A DNA stretch of 62,802 nucleotides from contig JAAILG010001708.1 of assembly GCA_012026655.1 (NCBI GenBank), forward strand, positions 1 through 62,802, read 5' to 3'. The stretch comes from Hydrolagus affinis. Its lineage: Eukaryota. The position numbers and the translations under genes are program-made. The notes below the pieces were generated by a model that was not told the DNA's origin, did no database searches, and saw only the letters and a list, made by a program, of their open reading frames with translations. Below are positions 4,715 through 62,802 of this stretch, in pieces. Within the stretch, counting starts at the first letter, position 1. Each line of letters begins with the position of its first letter.

Positions 4715-4841
4715 GGTCTTGCATTTCAGAATTTGGCAAATTCTTAAATACCAACTTTCATTCTGAAGCTGTTTTTTTCTGAGAAACAGCTTTCGAGTTA
4801 AGACTGAATTCAACAATTTGCCAAATTCTGAACACAACACC
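4715..4841. repeat. Decayed palindromic element (MITE-like relic)
   Basis: Perfect 18-bp inverted repeat ttcagaatttggcaaatt (4725-4742) / aatttgccaaattctgaa (4815-4832), with a concentric inner pair aagctgttt / aaacagctt. Confidence 0.65.
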
Positions 4842-8580: not shown

Positions 8581-8950
8581 CTAATAATCCTTGCATTTGA
8601 TAAAGTGCTTTGTGACGTCTTCTAGAAGTCTCAAAGCGCTTCACAGAATATACTGTAAAGTGAATTGACTGTATATTTTGTGGGCGAAACGCGGCAGCCA
8701 ATTGAGCACAGCAGCGTCCCCCACAAACAGCCGTGGATTGAAGTGACCAATTTATTAGTGTTATTTTTTTTGAAGGCATTATTAGCCCCATAAAAGTGAT
8801 CTGCCAAATCAACTAACAATCAGGTGCCTACTTACTGCTGGGTAAATAGAGACGTGTGGAGTAAGGAATCCTGCCCAACATTTCACCTGCCAGGAATCGA
8901 ACCCAGGTCTCTTGCTTGCGAGGCGAGCGCTCTAATCACTGAGCTACAGG
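8581..8950 (-). mobile_element. Full-length SINE, long subfamily
   Basis: Reverse strand: gtcctgtagctcagtgattagagcgc...gggttcgattcc head, central cccagcagtaagtaggcacctg, standard tail. Confidence 0.9.
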
Positions 8951-8959
8951 ACACATTGT

Positions 8960-17249: not shown

Positions 17250-17505
17250 AAATAAAGAAATCACTGGGAACACTCAGCAGGTCAGGCTGCATCTATGGAG
17301 AGAGGAAAAATGAGTTAACAATGACCTTTCGCCAGAATCTTTTGAAGCCAAATTGTCTGAACAAACTGTGGAGTTCAGACGAAAGGTCACAGACATGAAA
17401 CTCCTCTTCCTCTCACCATAGATGCTGCCTGACCTCCTATGCGTTCCTGGTGACTTTTTGTGTTCATACCACATTTCCAGGATCTGGAGTATTTTGCCTT
17501 TTTTT
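17250..17505. mobile_element. Older inverted dimer of a Penelope-type terminal repeat
   Basis: Arms ~17250-17337 (cactcagcaggtcaggctgcatctatggagagagg) and ~17373-17470 (cctctcaccatagatgctgcctgacc) are reverse complements; same family as 45060 and 62408. Confidence 0.75.
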
Positions 17506-17661
17506 TTCTTATCTTTTAATATTTGCTTGGTGGTGGCAGACCAGTCATTGGGGCTTGTTTTGGGATTAATAATCTGAGATTTTGGGTGAATTGTGGTAAC
17601 TGTATTTCACTGTGTGTTAAATACAGCAGCCAATTTTTCGTGCAAAGCAACGTAATAATAC

Positions 17662-20627: not shown

Positions 20628-20938
20628 AGTAATAATATTAATAATAATAATCCTTACGTTTGATATAGCGTCTTCTCATGTCTTCTAGACGTGCCTCACA
20701 GAATACACTCTTAAGTGAATTGACTGTTATATATGTAGGCGAAACACAGCAGCCAATTGTGCGCAGCAGTGTCTTACAAACAATAGTGGATTGAAATGAT
20801 TGAATTCTTCTTCTTTTTGAGGGATTATTATCAGGTGTGTGGATTAAGGAAACTTTCCCAATGTTTTGCCCTGCCTGGAATCAAACCCAGGTCTCTCGCT
20901 TGTAGGGCGAATGCTCTAACCCACTGTGCTACAAGACT
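20628..20938 (-). mobile_element. Full-length young SINE
   Basis: Head, body and (AAT)n tail all present. Confidence 0.88.
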
Positions 20939-22399: not shown

Positions 22400-22720
22400 A
22401 AATAATAATAATCCTTGCATTTGATATAGCACTTTTCATGTCTTGTAGGCATCTCAAAGCGCTTCACAGAATATACCGTAAAGTAAATTGTCTGTATATT
22501 TGTGGGCCAAAATGAGGCAGCCAATTGCGCACAGCAGCGTCCCCCACAAACAGTCGTGGATTGAAATGACCAATTTTATTATTATTTTTTCTTTGGAGGT
22601 ATTATTATTAAACGTGTGGAGTAAGGAAACTTGCCCAAGGTTTCGCCCTGACCTTCCTGGATTCGAAACACAGGTCTCACACTTGTAAGGCGAGTGCTCT
22701 AACCCACTGAGCTGCAGGAC
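22400..22720 (-). mobile_element. Full-length young SINE
   Basis: Reverse head gtcctgcagctcagtgggttagagcactcgcc...gttcgaatcc-like B box; (AAT)n tail. Confidence 0.92.
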
Positions 22721-23394
22721 ATGTTACTGAAGCTGCAGAATAGACTAGAATTGAAGGCTCAGTTATCCCACCTGACCTCAGCTTTGCCATCTTCTCTCCA
22801 CAATGGTTGTGATTGGGAATTCAGGAAATAGGGTGAGAGGGTCATGAGAACTATATTCCTTGGCTATTCTGTGACAACACAGATGAGCTCCCCAAAGCAC
22901 ACTCCCCAAAGTGCCTGTTTTCTAGGCACTTGAATCCTGCTCCAGCCTGGGGGATATGTTGAACTTAGACTTGTACAAGTCTAGACTTGTACATAAAAAC
23001 TATCAATGAACTTCCACAATCTAATGTCGGGAAATTTGATTCAATTGGAGTTAGCCAATTTATGGATGGATTTCCATACTGCCTCCCGATAGAATCCCAA
23101 TTGCCTGTAACAATATCATCCAAGTGAGTGAAGCATGAATGCAAATAAATGGAGGCCCTGGGTCTTAGCTGGACAACCTTTGAGTTGGGAGTCAAACTCA
23201 CACACAAAACACTTTGCATAAATGACTGTCGGAGAGGCAAAGGTCACAATCCTAAACTCTCTCATCACATCTCGGAGAGAGATTTGAATCTAAAACAGAC
23301 AAACAGGATGTAAGAGGTTGGCTCTCTCTGACAGCTACGGGGAGTCAGAAGTAAGATTAGTTTAGGCAGCTTGAACCCAATTGCCTCCGTCAGA

Positions 23395-23713: not shown

Positions 23714-24045
23714 GAGTCCTGTAGCTCAGTGGTTAGAGCACTCTCCTTACAAATGTGAGACCTCTGTTCAAATCCAGGCAGGTCAGGGGCAAAACCTTGG
23801 GAATGTTTCCTTACTTCACACACCTAATAATAATCCCTCCCCCAAAAAACACGCACAATATTAAAATTGGTTATTTCAATCCACGACTGTTTGTGGGGGA
23901 CGCTATTGTGCGCAATTGGCTGCCGCGTTTCGCCCACAAATATACAGTCAATTCACTTTACACTATATGTTGTATATGTGTTTTGAGACATCTAGAAGAT
24001 GTGAAAAGGATTAATATATCAACTGCAAGGATTATTATTATTATT
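23714..24045 (+). mobile_element. Full-length young SINE
   Basis: gagtcctgtagctcagtggttagagc (A box), gttcaaatcc (B box), (ATT)n tail. Confidence 0.92.
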
Positions 24046-32189: not shown

Positions 32190-32400
32190 TTAATAATAAT
32201 ATAATAATCTTGCATTTGATATAGCGCTTTGATATAGCGTCTTGGAGACATCTCAAAGCGCTTCACAGAATATACTGTAAAGTGAATTGACTGTAAATTT
32301 TGTGGAGGGAAATGCCATCAGCCAATTTCGCACAGCAGCGTCCATCCCCCACAAACAGTCATGGATTGATTGAGTCACCAACTTATTATTATTAGGGAGG
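32190..32400 (-). mobile_element. 5'-truncated young SINE
   Basis: Consensus 3' part; local duplication of tttgatatagcg. Confidence 0.88.
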
Positions 32401-33180: not shown

Positions 33181-36014
33181 AGACTAGAGAAACAGTACGA
33201 CCGACTGTCCTATTTCCCAAAGCAAACTTACTACCAATTCTTAATTACGGACATCCTGCATTGCAAAATTATGGGCATAAAACGGAGTAAGTAAAAAGAA
33301 AGACAAAAGTGCTCAGAATCGTGCAGAGCTGTATAGCGGGTGCTGGGATTTTCCTGAGGGATAAATCTGACCTACTCTCTCTGTCAGTCCTCTGTCAATG
33401 CATCCACATTTCCAGTAATTTTCTTATCTCGGTGATATTAAAAATGTTTCCTGTTTTCAAGGCCCTTTCTCTAGTGGGGCTCCTCTCTGGGGATTTCCTT
33501 ATCTAACTGCTTTGGCGGCAGAACATACACAAGTACAGCACTTTTTTTTCTCTCTCTCTGAAGTTCCGACAGGGATGAATGGCTGTAACACAATACACAG
33601 TCTATTCCACTTAAATTGCCTGATAAGTGACTGACTGATTCTTTAACTCACTAAGTGAGTCAGTCACCGATTCCCATTGTAAGATTGTATATATTTTACG
33701 GCTGTTTCTACCCGGATGTTTTTTCTGAATGTATATTATTTCGAAGGCATTTTATTTTGACAAGATATTTTAGAGACCTACATATTACTGCCTCCACGAT
33801 GCTAACCTTGCCTAAAGGGTACTATATAAATGCAAGTCATTGTTATTGTACCTCTACCTAATACACTTATTTGTATCGTTCTGTGCTTCGCCTCCCACAG
33901 ACATCATCACATCTGCGATTTCACAAGGGAAATTTACAACGTAGGAAACCATTGGCAAATGTCACCAAGCTAATCGCGAGGTTGGAAGCGTTTTGGTTGA
34001 ACCCTGTCCTGCCCTTATCTGGCCTCCATACCTTCATTTAGGGATCATGTATGGGAACCCTCATCTGATTATTTCCCCCTCCGTCCCTTAACCCTGCAGA
34101 GTCCTGGAGCTCAGTGGTTAAAGCTTCGTAAGCAGGAATACCTGGGTTTGAAGCCAAGCAGAGCAAAACCTTGCTTATCTCAAGCCCCCTCATTCTTTTA
34201 TTAATAGTTACTAATTACTGTAACGTCCTGAAGTGCTTAGACACTTTTTACAACGTCTTAAATTGTGACATTATTTCCCACATATTAAATACAGGTACAA
34301 GGTAACATTTCCCAAACTCAAGCGATTTGGGGACTGAAGAGTAATGCCTGTGCAATCTTCTTAAGAGTATCTTAAATATAAAAGATCTAAGTATATAGAC
34401 TGAATGTTGATGATCATAATCTTACACAGATTGCATTGTTCACACATATCCCAGGCTATTTCTATTCCACTACATTTATTTTGATATTGTAAAGCTATCT
34501 AGATATTCAATGTTCCAGCCACACTCAAGCCAGTCATGCAAATGATCAGGTGAAGAGAATGATGAGTGTGAAAACTCATCACCTGGTCAAACGTGGTGAG
34601 AGTTCCCTGTAGGCAAAGTTTGTGATATAAAAGTGACATATGGGGTTCTGGGTTTGGTGGTTAGAGCCCTTGCCTCGCAAGCGAGAGATCTGGGTTTGAT
34701 TCCCGGTGAACCGTTGGGGTTAGGATTATTTCCCCTCCTTACTCCACACACCACTGTTTATTTTTGTACAGTATTTTGTGAAACAAAGGCACTATAACAA
34801 CTTGCACTTGTATAGTGCCCTCCACACAGGGCAGCATCTAACAGCTCTACTCTGCTTCCCAAATGCAAGGATTATTATTATTATTATCTGTCCTATGGAA
34901 AAGCCTTCTCTTCTTGTAACTGATGAATCACTACAAGCTAAAAAAAATACTCTTCCCCATTCATTTTAATAACATTTTTGATCAATGCAAATAATGAGAC
35001 AGAGGGTAGAAATGTTTGCTTGATTAAATAAATGTATTTTTATTAGATTATTTTTAACACTTGCAGCGTGTAATGACCCAGTGATCCAGAAGCTCTCGCT
35101 CAAACACATTGATCAGGGTTTTCTTTTTACAACCTCTCTCAATGGGTGGAAGGAGCCCGGACTGTTTTCAATTATCCACAATACGCTTACAAGCACTTAA
35201 CAGGAGCATTAGCAGAGAGCACAGGTCTGGAGGGCACTGGACTCGGGGAAAACACACACAAAACAACAGCCATTAAACAAGGGAACCGTCCACTCCAAAC
35301 CCAGAAGGCCCAGTAATTCAAAAGGGGTTAAAATAGTTAACACAAGTAATCCAAAAGGGAGAAGATATGCAACAAACAAAGTGATACATGAAAAGAGAAC
35401 TCCTGCTTGTTTGACCTTTAATGCAGATAGCAGATGTCATAGGCTTGATTGCTGCGGAGGGAATTGAAAATTCTCCATCCCACTGTCCCATAAATATTCC
35501 GCTGACGTTTATTATCTTCAGTTTTGCTCAGATGCCAAAATACTTGGACTGCATTAAATTACTGGTTTGCAACGTTTCCACTCTGTCCACAAAGGTCCCT
35601 TATGGAACAGACATATCACTGATCCATTAACATGACATGTTCAACAAACATGCAGCTTCAGCAACATTTGTAAAACTGTACAACTGCTTGGAAATAGATT
35701 CTGTATGTGAATGCCTTATGTACCGATAAACTGTATCGGTACTAAGATTGTGCTAAGTAAACATAGTTCCTTGGGAGGGAGAGGTGGGGGGTTTCATTGC
35801 TTTGGTGAGCAGCACAATGAATAAATCCAAAGTGGGTTGTGGTGAAGACAGATTAAACTAATTCAGATCTACGGAACTCAAATCGCCGGGACCAACATGG
35901 AAAGAACGAGGATCAATATTGAAACATTAACTCCCCTTCGGAGGACAAACTACAGAACTGGACTTGAGCTGACTGGTCTCGGCATCTGTAATCTCTCGCT
36001 TTGCAGTTTAACAT

Positions 36015-36430: not shown

Positions 36431-37111
36431 ACAGTTGCATTGAGGTCAGTTGAACGACATAGCATCACCTCTGCAAATGGCCATTGTGGTTGCTCGAGTG
36501 ACGGAAAGCCTTGACTCCTGTTGAGATGGTTTGATTTCAGTTCCCGATAAAGGCTTCTATTTGCACCGCAAATTCATTCAACCAGGATCATAGCGTGAAC
36601 ACCAGCAGTGATAAGATATGTTGGTATTCATTTCAAAATCCACAGGCATGAAGATAATTTGTTAATACTCAGACGGAAAGGAAAGTTGATTGAATTTCCA
36701 CAATGGTACAGTGTGTGTTACAATGTGTGGAGGAAGATCAATGTTAGTTTCTGCGTTGGCAGCAGGAGATTTTTGTACCGCGTTTCCTAATAGCACATTT
36801 ACCATTCTTCACGCTGATACAATTGCCTTTCCCCTCCTGTGTGTCACAGGGATTGTGTGGCATAGGGGAGAGCGTGGAATTATTTCAATATCATAGTATT
36901 AGAAATAGAGGAGAAAGGTGAATGAATTGGAAACATCAGATTTGAAATGCGATGCTATCTCCTGATGCTCTGCACCAAGCCTAGGTGGTTTGGTTTGGAT
37001 ATCCCTCATCGCTCTACAATAAAGGGATGTGTTACCTCAACATCGTGGAAGTTTGATACGTGACCTTTTTTTGTCTTTGACCTTGAATTTCTTCAGAAGA
37101 TCACAAGGACC

Positions 37112-37435
37112 TCCTGTGGCTCAGTGGGTTAGAGCACTCGCCTTACAAGCGTGAGACTTGTGTTCGAATCCAGGCAGGTCTTATCGCCGAAACCTTGGTC
37201 GGCAAGTCTCCTTACTCCACACACACGCCTAATAATAATCCGTCCCCCCAAAAATAATAAAAATTGGTCGTTTTCAATCCATGACTGTTTGTGGGGGACG
37301 CTGCTGTGTGCAATTGTCTGCCCCGTTTTGCCCACAAATATACAGTCAATTTACTTTACAGTATATTCTGTGAAGCACTTTGGGACGTCGATAAAATGTA
37401 AAAAGCGCTATATCAAATGCAAGGATTATTGTTAT
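37112..37435 (+). mobile_element. Full-length young SINE
   Basis: A box tggctcagtgggtt, B box gttcgaatcc, consensus body and tail. Confidence 0.93.
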
Positions 37436-45040: not shown

Positions 45041-45059
45041 CAGTGGACATAATCCTTAA

Positions 45060-45203
45060 CAAAACACAAAATACGACAGATGCTGGGAATCTGAAACAAA
45101 AACAGAAGTTGCTGGGGAAACTCAGCAGGTCAGGCAGCATCCATGGAGAGAGGAAAAAGAGTCAACGTTTCGGGTCTACAACCCTTCGTCAGAACTGAGA
45201 TAC
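45060..45203 (-). mobile_element. Penelope-type terminal-repeat fragment (monomer) with TSD
   Basis: Near-identical to the reverse complement of 62516-62652; flanked by aatccttaa (45051-45059 and 45204-45212). Confidence 0.85.
45160..45196 (-). ncRNA. Minimal type I hammerhead ribozyme motif
   Basis: Minus strand AGUU-CUGACGA-A-GGGU uguag ACCC-GAAA-CGUU-GACU: both catalytic boxes, 4-bp helix II, 4-bp helix I (AGUU/GACU), and palindromic AACGUU in place of helix III. Confidence 0.65.
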
Positions 45204-45975
45204 AATCCTTAAAATACTTGTGTGGTAATCAAACAAGATCACACCACACACAATCTCAAGACTCGCCCATTTTTGTTGTGGAATGCTCTATAGAACCTAA
45301 AATTTCACCTATTCCTTCCATTCTTAAAAATTTCAGGTGAGGCTGAAAGATGGCAAATTCTTCAATCCAATTCTAATTTTGAATCCAGTTCATTTTAAGA
45401 ACTGTAAAAAGGTGGGAATTATAAGTTTACACTCTCAACAATGTAAGCACAACAGAAGAGACTGAGTGATGCAGGTTTGGCTGATACTTGAGTTATCTTA
45501 TACAATAAATGATACACGAGTACATATGTTCCTATTGCAGTAGAGTAACAGCAGGAGAAGTATATATTGGCTACATCCTGTGAAACCCTTTGAGATGCCC
45601 TCCCAATATGAAATACATTACAGTATACTAAATATAATTATTATTTCTTTCCCCTAGTTCTAAACTCTACTGCTCTCTCATCAATCACACGCATTGGAAG
45701 AAAAAGGCGAGATTGGAGAAGCATTTAGAAATAATAATAATCCTCACAACTGATGTAATCACTTTAGACCATCAAGAGATGAGCTGATTAGATTTTGATT
45801 GTGTTGTGCTTAGATTAATGCAAAACGGAGCCAAATCTTCAAGGGAGAGAGAGAGAGAGAGAGTCACCATCCAAACTCCTCCGATAACATCAAAATCAAC
45901 AACAGAAGTAAAAGCTGGCTTAATTCCAAGCTTCTTCAGTTTAGGTTTGGATTGCTCATGATAAAGGAGCATTAA

Positions 45976-46091
45976 ACGTTTCGCCCACAAATATACACAG
46001 TCAATCACTTTACAGTATATTCTGTGAAGCGCTTTCGAGATGTCTAGAAGACATGAAAAGCGCTATAGCAAACGCAAGGATTATCATTATT
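45976..46091 (+). mobile_element. Young SINE 3' fragment
   Basis: cgtttcgcccacaaatat...gcaaggattatcattat. Confidence 0.88.
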
Positions 46092-46183
46092 AAAACCGTT
46101 TACAAAGAGAATCTGTGTCTGAACTGTTTGAGCTAATCAAATTCTTGTGATAAGGACATGGAAATCCATCACTTGACCTGGAG

Positions 46184-46340
46184 TAATAATAATTCTTGTA
46201 TTTGAAATAACACTTCTCACATCTTCTAGACATCTTAAAGCGCTTCACAGAATAGATGTAAAGAGAATTGACTGTATATTTGTGGGCGAAACGCGGCAGC
46301 CAATTGCGCACAGCAGCGTCCCCCCACAAACTGTCGTTTG
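46184..46340 (-). mobile_element. Young SINE 3' fragment
   Basis: Reverse consensus tail; sits tail-to-tail with the previous copy. Confidence 0.88.
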
Positions 46341-57254: not shown

Positions 57255-57560
57255 AATTGTTTGTCAATTGCCAGATCGTTTTCTGGGGATAATAATTCAC
57301 AAAATGCAACCCATTTTACAGTATATTCTGTGAAGCATTTTGAGACGTCTCGAATACGTGATAAGGCGCTATATTAATAATAATAAATAATAATAATCCT
57401 TGCATTTGATATAGCACTTTCCACATCTTATCAACGTCCCAAAGCGCGTCACAGAATATACTGTAAGTGAATTGACTGTATATATTTGTGGGCGAATCGC
57501 GGCAGCCAATTGCTCATGGCAGCGTCCCCCACAAATATCAAATGCGAGGATTATTCTTAT
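57255..57560. mobile_element. Nested SINEs: a minus-strand copy inside the tail of a plus-strand copy
   Basis: The plus tail breaks at ...ggcgctatat (57374) and resumes atatcaaatgcgagg (57535); the insert between is a reverse SINE 3' end. Confidence 0.85.
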
Positions 57561-62275: not shown

Positions 62276-62407
62276 TCTTACTGCGAATTTAATGCAGAAA
62301 GGAAACATGATGCCTAGAACAACACACATCCACTCCCCTTTACTATATATCCTATCAAGTGCTTTCAGATGTCCTCCAGATTTCAAGGCACTATATGAAA
62401 TGTAAGA

Positions 62408-62653
62408 AACAAAAACAGAAGTTGCTGGGGAAACTCTGCAGGTCAGGCAGCATCCATGGAGAAAGGAAAAAGAGTCAACATTTCGGGTCTACAACCCTTC
62501 ATCAGAACAGGGTTAGTTCTGACGAAGGGTTGTAGATCCAAAACGTTGACTCTTTTTCCTCTCTCCATGGATGCTGCCTGACCTGCAGAGTTTCCCCAGC
62601 AACTTCTGTTTTTGTTTCAGATTCCCAGCATCTGTAGTATTTTGTGTTTTGTG
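62408..62653. mobile_element. Penelope-type inverted terminal-repeat dimer with a 14-bp TSD
   Basis: Arms 62406-62508 and 62516-62618 are reverse complements (5 mismatches in 103 bp); spacer agggtta; tatgaaatgtaaga is duplicated at 62394-62407 and 62654-62667. Confidence 0.9.
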
Positions 62654-62802
62654 TATGAAATGTAAGATTCATGAAGGCCTTTTTTGGCTATGTGTCAGCC
62701 CAGCTCAGTGATAACACTCTCGCTTGCCACATTGAGACTTGGAATCACATAGTTTAATTTGACACCCATTGCTGTGAGCAATTGGCTGCAGCGTTTCCCC
62801 CA

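What the first reader, a model, noticed from the sequence alone, without database searches (positions are those of the whole stretch)
62394..62667. 103-bp-arm hairpin of two back-to-back hammerhead motifs, inserted as one unit with a 14-bp TSD
The arms (62406-62508 and 62516-62618) differ at only 5 positions and enclose a 7-nt spacer. The right arm continues ~35 bp further to the element's 3' end. A single TSD (tatgaaatgtaaga) flanks the whole structure, which sits in an old SINE tail, so the palindrome was made in one insertion event, as known for inverted Penelope terminal repeats. Each strand carries a hammerhead motif: minus CUGAUGA-A-GGGU..ACCC-GAAA-UGUU, and plus CUGACGA-A-GGGU..AUCC-AAAA, where the core G is mutated. 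Any transcript across it would form long dsRNA, a potential source of siRNAs or miRNA-like RNAs. It may represent a non-autonomous, MITE-looking retroelement family. The spacer agggtta(g) is a permutation of the telomeric TTAGGG repeat, which is intriguing for a telomerase-related RT but short enough to be chance.
Basis: partly seen in the sequence, partly recalled or inferred. Interest (0 to 1): 0.75.

Follow-up and report, generated by a model that had tools for sequence, protein, structure and literature searches.

The report
Mirror-image stump of Penelope retroelement
The hairpin is real, but it is most likely an ordinary dead-on-arrival stump of a very abundant Penelope-type jumping gene, laid down in the mirror-image-plus-tail pattern already described for this class, and its telomere-like centre is probably a coincidence.

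Summary
Observation confirmed: 103-bp arms with 5 differences, a 7-nt spacer, a 35-bp extension on one side, one 14-bp target duplication inside an old SINE tail, and a minimal hammerhead motif per strand. The window holds two more family copies: a single-arm monomer with an intact motif (45059-45196, 9-bp duplication) and an older palindrome with a non-telomeric centre (17250-17503). Public DNA runs indicate roughly 10^4-10^5 related copies, whose 3' ends pile up at the tail end (62650-52); a second, rarer end (62616) is exactly where the tail-less arm stops. This matches the published 'pLTR + inverted 5'-truncated copy + 30-40-bp tail' layout of endonuclease-bearing Penelope-like elements. 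Both arms share a rare variant, so they were likely copied from one source in one event. Both ribozyme motifs have decayed and are predicted to be locked in the hairpin. The spacer is not family sequence, and the same six letters occur 11 nt away, so the telomere idea is weak. No linked RT gene was found, so membership rests on architecture. No RNA read covered this locus's unique flank in one run. Ordinary; one testable lead is that such stumps are run-off cDNAs.

The parts
62338..62393 (+). Decayed 3' tail of the window's abundant tRNA-headed SINE (host of the insertion)
   Evidence: blastn to other SINE tails, e.g. 32206-32282 at 74% across the reconstructed empty site; tRNA-like heads elsewhere in the window
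62394..62407 (+). Left target-site duplication (14 bp exact; 16 bp from 62392 with one mismatch)
62406..62508 (-). Left arm: inverted, tail-less copy of the element end; its outer end (62408) corresponds to the family's secondary 3' end 62616
   Evidence: loose ends at 62616 in X7 (18 contigs, mixed flanks) and X14 (324 reads, mostly one locus)
62473..62508 (-). Minimal type I hammerhead motif with complete core, but C7>U and C15.2>U (CpG decay); the latter weakens the predicted dimer helix III
   Evidence: 8-mer duplex energy -4.1 to +0.2 kcal/mol
62509..62514 (+). Six free junction letters (AGGGTT); not family upstream sequence; the same 6-mer occurs at 62526-62531; also reads as one G-rich telomeric unit
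62515..62618 (+). Right arm: sense copy of the element end (pLTR-like)
   Evidence: 97% identical to the monomer at 45059-45196 over 138 nt including the tail
62515..62551 (+). Minimal hammerhead motif with G12>A at 62540 and C>T at 62537; predicted cut site would be 62547/62548
   Evidence: family depth has G at 62540 in 82%, 77% and 92% in X1, X6 and X7
62617..62652 (+). 'Tail' of 34-36 nt between the family's two 3' ends (62616 and 62650-52), present on the right side only
   Evidence: loose-end piles at 62650/51/52: 128/118/241 contigs in X1 and 78/75/172 in X6, followed by mixed AT-rich flanks
62654..62667 (+). Right target-site duplication
   Evidence: junction present in contigs of runs X1 (62628-62802, 0 differences) and X6 (62627-62802, one 13-bp gap)
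45059..45196 (-). Single-arm (monomer) copy of the same family with tail and intact hammerhead motif; 9-bp TSD at 45204-45212 and 45051-45059, 7 extra nt at the 5' junction
17250..17503 (+). Older palindromic copy of a sister subfamily: tail on the right only, about 32-nt non-telomeric centre, TSD 11 bp exact (14-15 with one indel)

Best explanation
This is most likely a dead, strongly 5'-truncated insertion of the hammerhead-bearing terminal module (pLTR) of an abundant endonuclease-bearing Penelope-like retrotransposon, probably built in a single event as a tailed sense copy joined head-to-head to an inverted tail-less copy between one target-site duplication. Inferred mechanism: the element's GIY-YIG nuclease makes a staggered cut 14-16 nt apart in an AT-rich SINE tail. 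The RT starts cDNA at the two fixed internal start sites, 34-36 nt apart, one used at each target end (or one cDNA self-primes and is resolved at the inner site). Both products stop at the 5' edge of the hammerhead and are joined with six extra, probably locally templated, letters. The arms then decayed independently, mainly at CpG. It cannot encode RT, and the ribozyme motifs are predicted to be inactive. Shown: geometry, TSD, two 3' ends, shared rare variant, decay pattern. Inferred: the enzyme, the priming order and the origin of the junction letters.
For: Layout equals the published PLE layout of inverted 5'-truncated copy, 30-40-bp tail at one end and variable TSD (PMC8557442 passages; PMC3846280 parts 1-4; PMC2377424 passages). 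The monomer's motif fits the published min-HHR consensus, including the extra nucleotide after A9, G10.1-C11.1 and palindromic 15.2-16.2. 3' ends pile at 62650-52 in all four runs; a second end at 62616 (listed for X7 and X14) is exactly where the left arm stops. This parallels the two RT start sites that define the tail in Poseidon_Ac (PMC11167929 parts 1-2). Both arms carry A at 62587 (T at 62437), a letter held by 0.16-0.34% of family depth in three DNA runs, so both come from one source. All 5 arm differences are private C>T/G>A changes relative to the monomer, one at each of the 3 CpGs plus two others. Read consensuses show stem II variants that keep pairing, including a G-C to A-U double change (table 7). 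Three insertions in the window have TSDs of 14-16, 9 and 11+ bp in AT-rich targets.
Against: No RT or GIY-YIG sequence was linked to the family. Pfam on 150 of 176 ORFs of 75 aa or more in the window gave no RT/EN hit. The element-coded peptide found no longer protein, one 71-aa unnamed protein and no Atlas lead. No empty allele was seen among the listed rows (24 of 763 loose ends shown), so the TSD rests on SINE continuity. Covariation on the five window arms is not significant (132 of 500 shuffles as high). All five arms start within about 1-2 nt of the same point, which random 5' truncation does not predict.
Confidence: 0.8

Rival explanations
1. A dedicated short non-autonomous element (SINE- or retrozyme-like, about 138 nt, starting at the hammerhead) is transcribed from its own source loci and mobilised in trans by a PLE enzyme; palindromes are by-products of its insertion.
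For: Five arms from three insertions and two subfamilies begin at the hammerhead's helix I with unrelated upstream letters. Copy abundance is very high (depth ratio 5.6e4-2e5; the tool warns this is no copy number). No autonomous partner was found.
Against: 82, 56 and 27 contigs and 259 reads continue upstream of 62515 with a shared consensus, so a longer parent exists. No tandem head-to-tail arrays appear in the window, as retrozymes would have (PMC7229834 passages; bioRxiv 10.64898/2026.07.22.740005 part 1 and passages). No pile-up of RNA starts or ends was listed (table 6).
Confidence: 0.12
2. The six junction letters were added by telomerase (or copied from telomeric sequence) onto the free 3' end of the left-arm cDNA before joining.
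For: With the two following element letters the junction reads as one G-rich telomeric unit. It lies on the strand and at the end where EN-deficient PLEs receive telomeric repeats on their truncated 5' ends (PMC3846280 part 1). The exact 6-mer has a background frequency of 3e-4.
Against: Only one unit is present, and two of its eight letters are element-templated. The same 6-mer lies 11 nt into the element (a chance match in the first 25 nt is 0.9%), giving a simpler local template. The other palindrome's centre and the monomer's 5' junction are not telomeric. Depth on 62509-62514 looks near zero in all four runs (my estimate from bin means).
Confidence: 0.06
3. A MITE or foldback DNA transposon whose terminal inverted repeats happen to derive from a hammerhead-bearing sequence, moving as a palindrome.
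For: Long inverted repeats with a short centre; 2 of 3 family insertions in the window are palindromic.
Against: The right end extends 35 nt beyond the repeat, so the ends are not symmetric. TSDs are long and variable. A one-armed copy has its own TSD. The two centres are unrelated.
Confidence: 0.02
4. The locus works as a host source of double-stranded RNA (endo-siRNA or miRNA-like).
For: Any read-through transcript is predicted to fold into a 103-bp hairpin (-186.8 and -199.1 kcal/mol for the two strands). Family-derived polyA reads occur on both strands.
Against: No read on the unique flank 62669-62758 in X14 (about 27% of one run read). The Rfam miRNA hits are far below cut-off. The arms are drifting apart at CpGs with no sign of maintained pairing.
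Confidence: 0.05

Closest known systems
Insertion units of endonuclease-positive Penelope-like elements: pLTR, adjacent inverted 5'-truncated pLTR, 30-40-bp tail (Arkhipova 2013 PMC3846280; Craig 2021 PMC8557442; Schostak 2008 PMC2377424)
   Same: Head-to-head inverted copy, tail at one end only, one variable-length TSD, AT-rich target.
   Different: Truncated to the terminal module alone, with no ORF between the repeats; clade (Neptune or Poseidon) and autonomous partner not identified.
[quoted passage not shown]
   Same: Core CUGANGA + 1 nt, G10.1-C11.1 stem II, GAAA-CG-UH, short helix I; that paper also notes dual motifs 100-700 bp apart on opposite strands and mostly solitary motifs from truncated PLEs.
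   Different: Both copies here are damaged, inverted rather than tandem, and predicted to be sequestered in the long hairpin. No cartilaginous fish appears in the parts of its alignment that I read (supplement parts 1-2 of 3).
Poseidon_Ac in vitro system (Frangieh 2024, PMC11167929)
   Same: Two fixed 3' ends one tail apart, about 100-140 nt downstream of the hammerhead; AT-rich targets; 5' ends not at the ribozyme cut site.
   Different: No ORF continuation could be shown here; mechanism inferred by analogy only.
Animal non-LTR retrozymes (Cervera 2020 PMC7229834; Li 2026 bioRxiv 10.64898/2026.07.22.740005)
   Same: Non-coding, hammerhead-bearing, PLE-related, long TSDs.
   Different: Retrozymes are head-to-tail tandem arrays; these copies are monomers or inverted pairs with a minimal motif.

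Membership tests
EN+ Penelope-like element insertion | RT + GIY-YIG ORF linked to the terminal repeat | tested here: inconclusive
   No RT/EN Pfam hit in 150 of 176 window ORFs of 75 aa or more; peptide searches gave nothing useful; no host genome held
EN+ Penelope-like element insertion | Minimal hammerhead motif in the pLTR | tested here: met
   Intact in the monomer and family majority, decayed in both arms
EN+ Penelope-like element insertion | Inverted 5'-truncated copy joined head-to-head at the 5' end | tested here: met
   This locus and 17250-17503
EN+ Penelope-like element insertion | 30-40-bp tail at one end only, between two fixed 3' ends | tested here: met
   Ends at 62616 and 62650-52; the 62616 end is listed for 2 of 4 runs only
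EN+ Penelope-like element insertion | Variable-length TSD in AT-rich target | tested here: met
   14-16, 9 and 11+ bp in 3 of 3 window insertions; AT-rich flank consensuses
EN+ Penelope-like element insertion | Hammerhead self-cleavage (dimeric or protein-assisted) | not testable with these tools
   No start/end pile-up in one polyA run (table 6), which is uninformative
MITE / DNA transposon | Inverted repeats at both termini and fixed short TSD | tested here: not met
   Asymmetric tail, variable long TSDs, one-armed copy
Non-LTR retrozyme | Head-to-tail tandem units each with a type I hammerhead | tested here: not met
   3 insertions in the window, none tandem; genome-wide arrays not testable
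Telomere-associated EN-deficient PLE (Athena, Terminon) | Reverse-complement telomeric repeats just 3' of the hammerhead; attachment at chromosome ends | tested here: not met
   Interstitial, TSD-flanked, no telomeric repeat at the 3' end (definition from PMC6431247 passages)
miRNA precursor (Rfam mir-2131) | Score at or above the family gathering threshold | tested here: not met
   42 and 39.8 bits against 92

The most novel reading that the evidence does not exclude
The stumps are not random truncations but run-off ('strong-stop'-like) cDNAs. The RT starts at the internal sites just downstream of the 5' pLTR's hammerhead and falls off an RNA 5' end at the edge of helix I. When a dimeric enzyme primes from both target strands, one at each start site, it writes a palindrome with a tail on one side. 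This would account for the fixed ends, the abundance of about 140-bp copies and the inverted-pLTR-plus-tail pattern with one mechanism, testable in the existing Poseidon_Ac in vitro system.
Probability: 0.3. Interest if true: 0.45.

Novelty: new member of a known kind. Interest (0 to 1): 0.2.

Why it matters
As a single locus it matters little: it is one of probably tens of thousands of decaying retroelement stumps. Its use is as a clean footprint of how Penelope-like elements insert, which is still unresolved. It shows two arms from one source, one ending at each of the two family 3' ends. Such families would let one test self-priming against two-end priming from genome data alone. Annotators should not call these palindromes MITEs or miRNA genes.

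Tried and rejected
Search for the autonomous partner failed: word-indexed protein search with the 41-aa frame (2 candidates, none at E 0.01 or better); phmmer with the 33-aa frame (1 hit, a 71-aa unnamed singleton); ESM Atlas (best 0.75, low recognition); Pfam on 150 of 176 window ORFs (two weak unrelated hits below cut-off). DNA pattern scans: metagenomes 0 and 0, viral contigs 0, GTDB genomes 1 match (L001, a bacterial MAG with no similarity beyond the 22-nt match, treated as chance). No RNA holder was listed by the run search. Covariation on five arms is not significant; one search used a helix I misplaced by one column and is disregarded. Gene conversion between arms as the source of the shared variant is considered unlikely: the clustering of differences near the centre is explained by all three CpGs lying there. 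Literature searches with no relevant hit: 0 papers; 1-2 papers each, none describing this family in what I saw. The library lacks most subscription papers and Repbase/Dfam, where this family may well be catalogued. Look-ups of earlier scan findings by sequence, by place and by the first word set were empty.

Full report
Observation. The arms are 62406-62508 and 62516-62618, 103 nt with 5 differences and 7 nt between them, and an exact 14-bp direct repeat flanks the whole. The repeat has a chance of about 1e-6 and extends to 16 bp with one mismatch. A 35-nt extension lies on the right only. The hairpin folds at -186.8 kcal/mol, z = -23.7. Removing the insert in silico restores a continuous, decayed SINE tail that matches other copies in the window, so the repeat behaves as one target-site duplication. 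No whole genome is held. I take the host to be a cartilaginous fish from recall of the SINE and of similar repeats; no call shows this beyond a fish-gut run that holds part of the stretch.

The family inside the window. A profile search finds five arms in three insertions; the other five matches had E 0.17 or worse. The copy at 45059-45196 is a single arm with tail, 97% identical to the right arm, with its own 9-bp duplication and an intact motif. The copy at 17250-17503 is an older palindrome of a sister subfamily, again with the tail on one side, a centre of about 32 nt that is not telomeric, and a duplication of 11 exact bases. So the palindrome recurs but is not the obligatory unit, and TSD length varies.

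The hammerhead. The monomer has a 4-bp helix I, the core CUGACGA, one extra A, a 5-bp stem II, then GAAA-CG-UU and the cut site. This fits the minimal type I consensus of metazoan PLEs (PMC4209133: main text parts 1-2 of 4; supplement parts 1-2 of 3). Relative to the monomer, all five arm differences are private C>T or G>A changes, one at each of the three CpGs and two elsewhere. The right arm lost G12. The left arm lost the palindromic CG needed for the dimer helix III (duplex -4.1 to +0.2 kcal/mol). In a transcript across the locus, the probability of stem II's outer pair forming is about 1e-17 on either strand. Both motifs are therefore predicted to be inactive. Read consensuses show stem II variants that keep pairing, but covariation on the five window arms alone is not significant (132 of 500 shuffles).

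Family-level data. I laid three DNA contig sets (X1, X6, X7) and one polyA RNA run (X14), 4 of the 15 runs listed, on 62509-62802 at 88% likeness. Peak summed depth on the element over depth on the unique flank is 5.6e4 to 2e5. The tool warns that this is not a copy number, so I read it as order 10^4-10^5, in line with 3 insertions in 63 kb. Loose ends (24 of 763 rows shown) pile at 62650-52 in all runs, followed by mixed AT-rich sequence. A second end at 62616 is listed for X7 (18 contigs, against 111 at 62650 and 62652) and X14 (324 reads, agreement 0.85, so mostly one locus); it is not among the rows shown for X1 and X6. The left arm's unambiguous end, 62408, corresponds exactly to 62616. 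Upstream of 62515, 82, 56 and 27 contigs and 259 reads continue with a consensus ending in the same letters (one position differs in X7), unrelated to the spacer, so a longer parent exists. The position of that pile is set by my reference and says nothing about a fixed 5' end. Of 15 joints shown (25 in all), 4 change strand, at scattered places, in 1-3 contigs each, none symmetric at the centre and none with RNA support; short-read contigs assemble palindromes poorly, so this does not measure their frequency. Both arms carry a letter (A62587/T62437) found in 0.16-0.34% of family depth, which indicates one source template. The right junction is present in contigs of X1 and X6 (two organism labels); no empty allele appeared in the listed rows. 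X14 has no read on the unique flank 62669-62758 and no start or end pile-up; about 27% of that one run was read.

What it is. The layout is the published one for endonuclease-bearing Penelope-like elements: an inverted 5'-truncated copy adjacent to the 5' end, a 30-40-bp tail at one end only, and a variable TSD (PMC8557442, passages; PMC3846280, text parts 1-4 of 5; PMC2377424, passages; PMC8969392, passages). In Poseidon_Ac the tail is the stretch between two internal RT start sites downstream of the hammerhead; the enzyme cuts and extends both strands of AT-rich DNA, and ribozyme cleavage is not needed (PMC11167929, parts 1-2 of 4). By analogy I infer a staggered cut, cDNA started at the outer site on one side and the inner site on the other, and head-to-head joining. 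Self-priming, proposed in PMC3846280, also gives arms from one source and is not excluded; the left arm ending exactly at the second family end favours two-end priming slightly. The weak point is that no RT or nuclease gene could be linked, so membership rests on RNA motif and architecture, and the clade is undetermined.

The spacer. Only six letters are free, since the next two are element sequence. For a telomeric origin: the exact 6-mer is rare (3e-4), and it lies in the G-rich orientation at the 3' end of the left-arm cDNA, where EN-deficient PLEs are described as receiving telomeric repeats. Against: it is one unit; the same 6-mer sits 11 nt away in stem II (0.9% by chance within 25 nt); and the other two 5' junctions in the window are not telomeric. 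That locally templated letters are common at such junctions is recalled, not tested here. I put telomerase at about 6%.

The one unexplained point. All five arms begin within 1-2 nt of the 5' strand of helix I, with unrelated letters upstream. This suggests that the RT runs off an RNA end or splice junction there. In D. virilis Penelope an intron ends at helix I, but transcription starts about 120 nt upstream (46 nt plus a 75-nt intron), so the analogy is imperfect, and copies extending upstream do exist here. A search for this model in print found nothing (one search). Earlier AI notes from this scan on other genomes describe the same pattern and the same hint; they are unchecked and are not counted as support.

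Other papers seen: bioRxiv 10.64898/2026.07.22.740005 (part 1 of 5 and passages), PMC7229834 (passages), PMC6431247 (passages), PMC9004415 (passages), bioRxiv 10.1101/443036 (passages; Penelope-like elements are expanded in whale shark introns). Supplements of the bioRxiv preprints were not seen; the 2026 preprint includes one cartilaginous fish and its supplement may list this family.

Verdict. A real but ordinary Penelope-type insertion stump; new member of a known kind; interest 0.2.

Noticed in passing
window 17550-17560: An 11-nt match (minus strand) to the family's upstream consensus lies about 45 bp beyond the older palindrome, outside its apparent TSD; it is the only such match in the window. 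May be chance or a displaced piece of the parent.
   Followed up: partly
window 62571-62652 (+) and the matching monomer frame: An ATG-started hydrophobic frame of about 27 codons runs to the tail end, as expected if the module overlaps the start of the parent ORF; a strong pyrimidine tract plus AG sits at the arm/tail boundary (62605-62620). No longer protein was found.
   Followed up: partly
window 4725-4832: A separate 108-bp imperfect palindrome (73%) with no other copy in the window; possibly an old MITE-like element.
   Followed up: no
window 45977-46293 and 57316-57466: Apparent palindromes that are tail-to-tail pairs of the abundant SINE, not separate elements.
   Followed up: yes
window 8882-8953, 20866-20938, 22648-22721, 23715-23786, 34643-34714, 37110-37178: Six tRNA-like matches above the Rfam cut-off, probably heads of the abundant SINE.
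   Followed up: no
window 62704-62716: One contig of run X6 lacks 13 bp in the right flank, a polymorphism or between-organism difference.
   Followed up: no
joint 62614 to 62652: An opposite-strand joint at the 3' side in 3 contigs of X1, suggesting that tail-to-tail inversions also occur.
   Followed up: no
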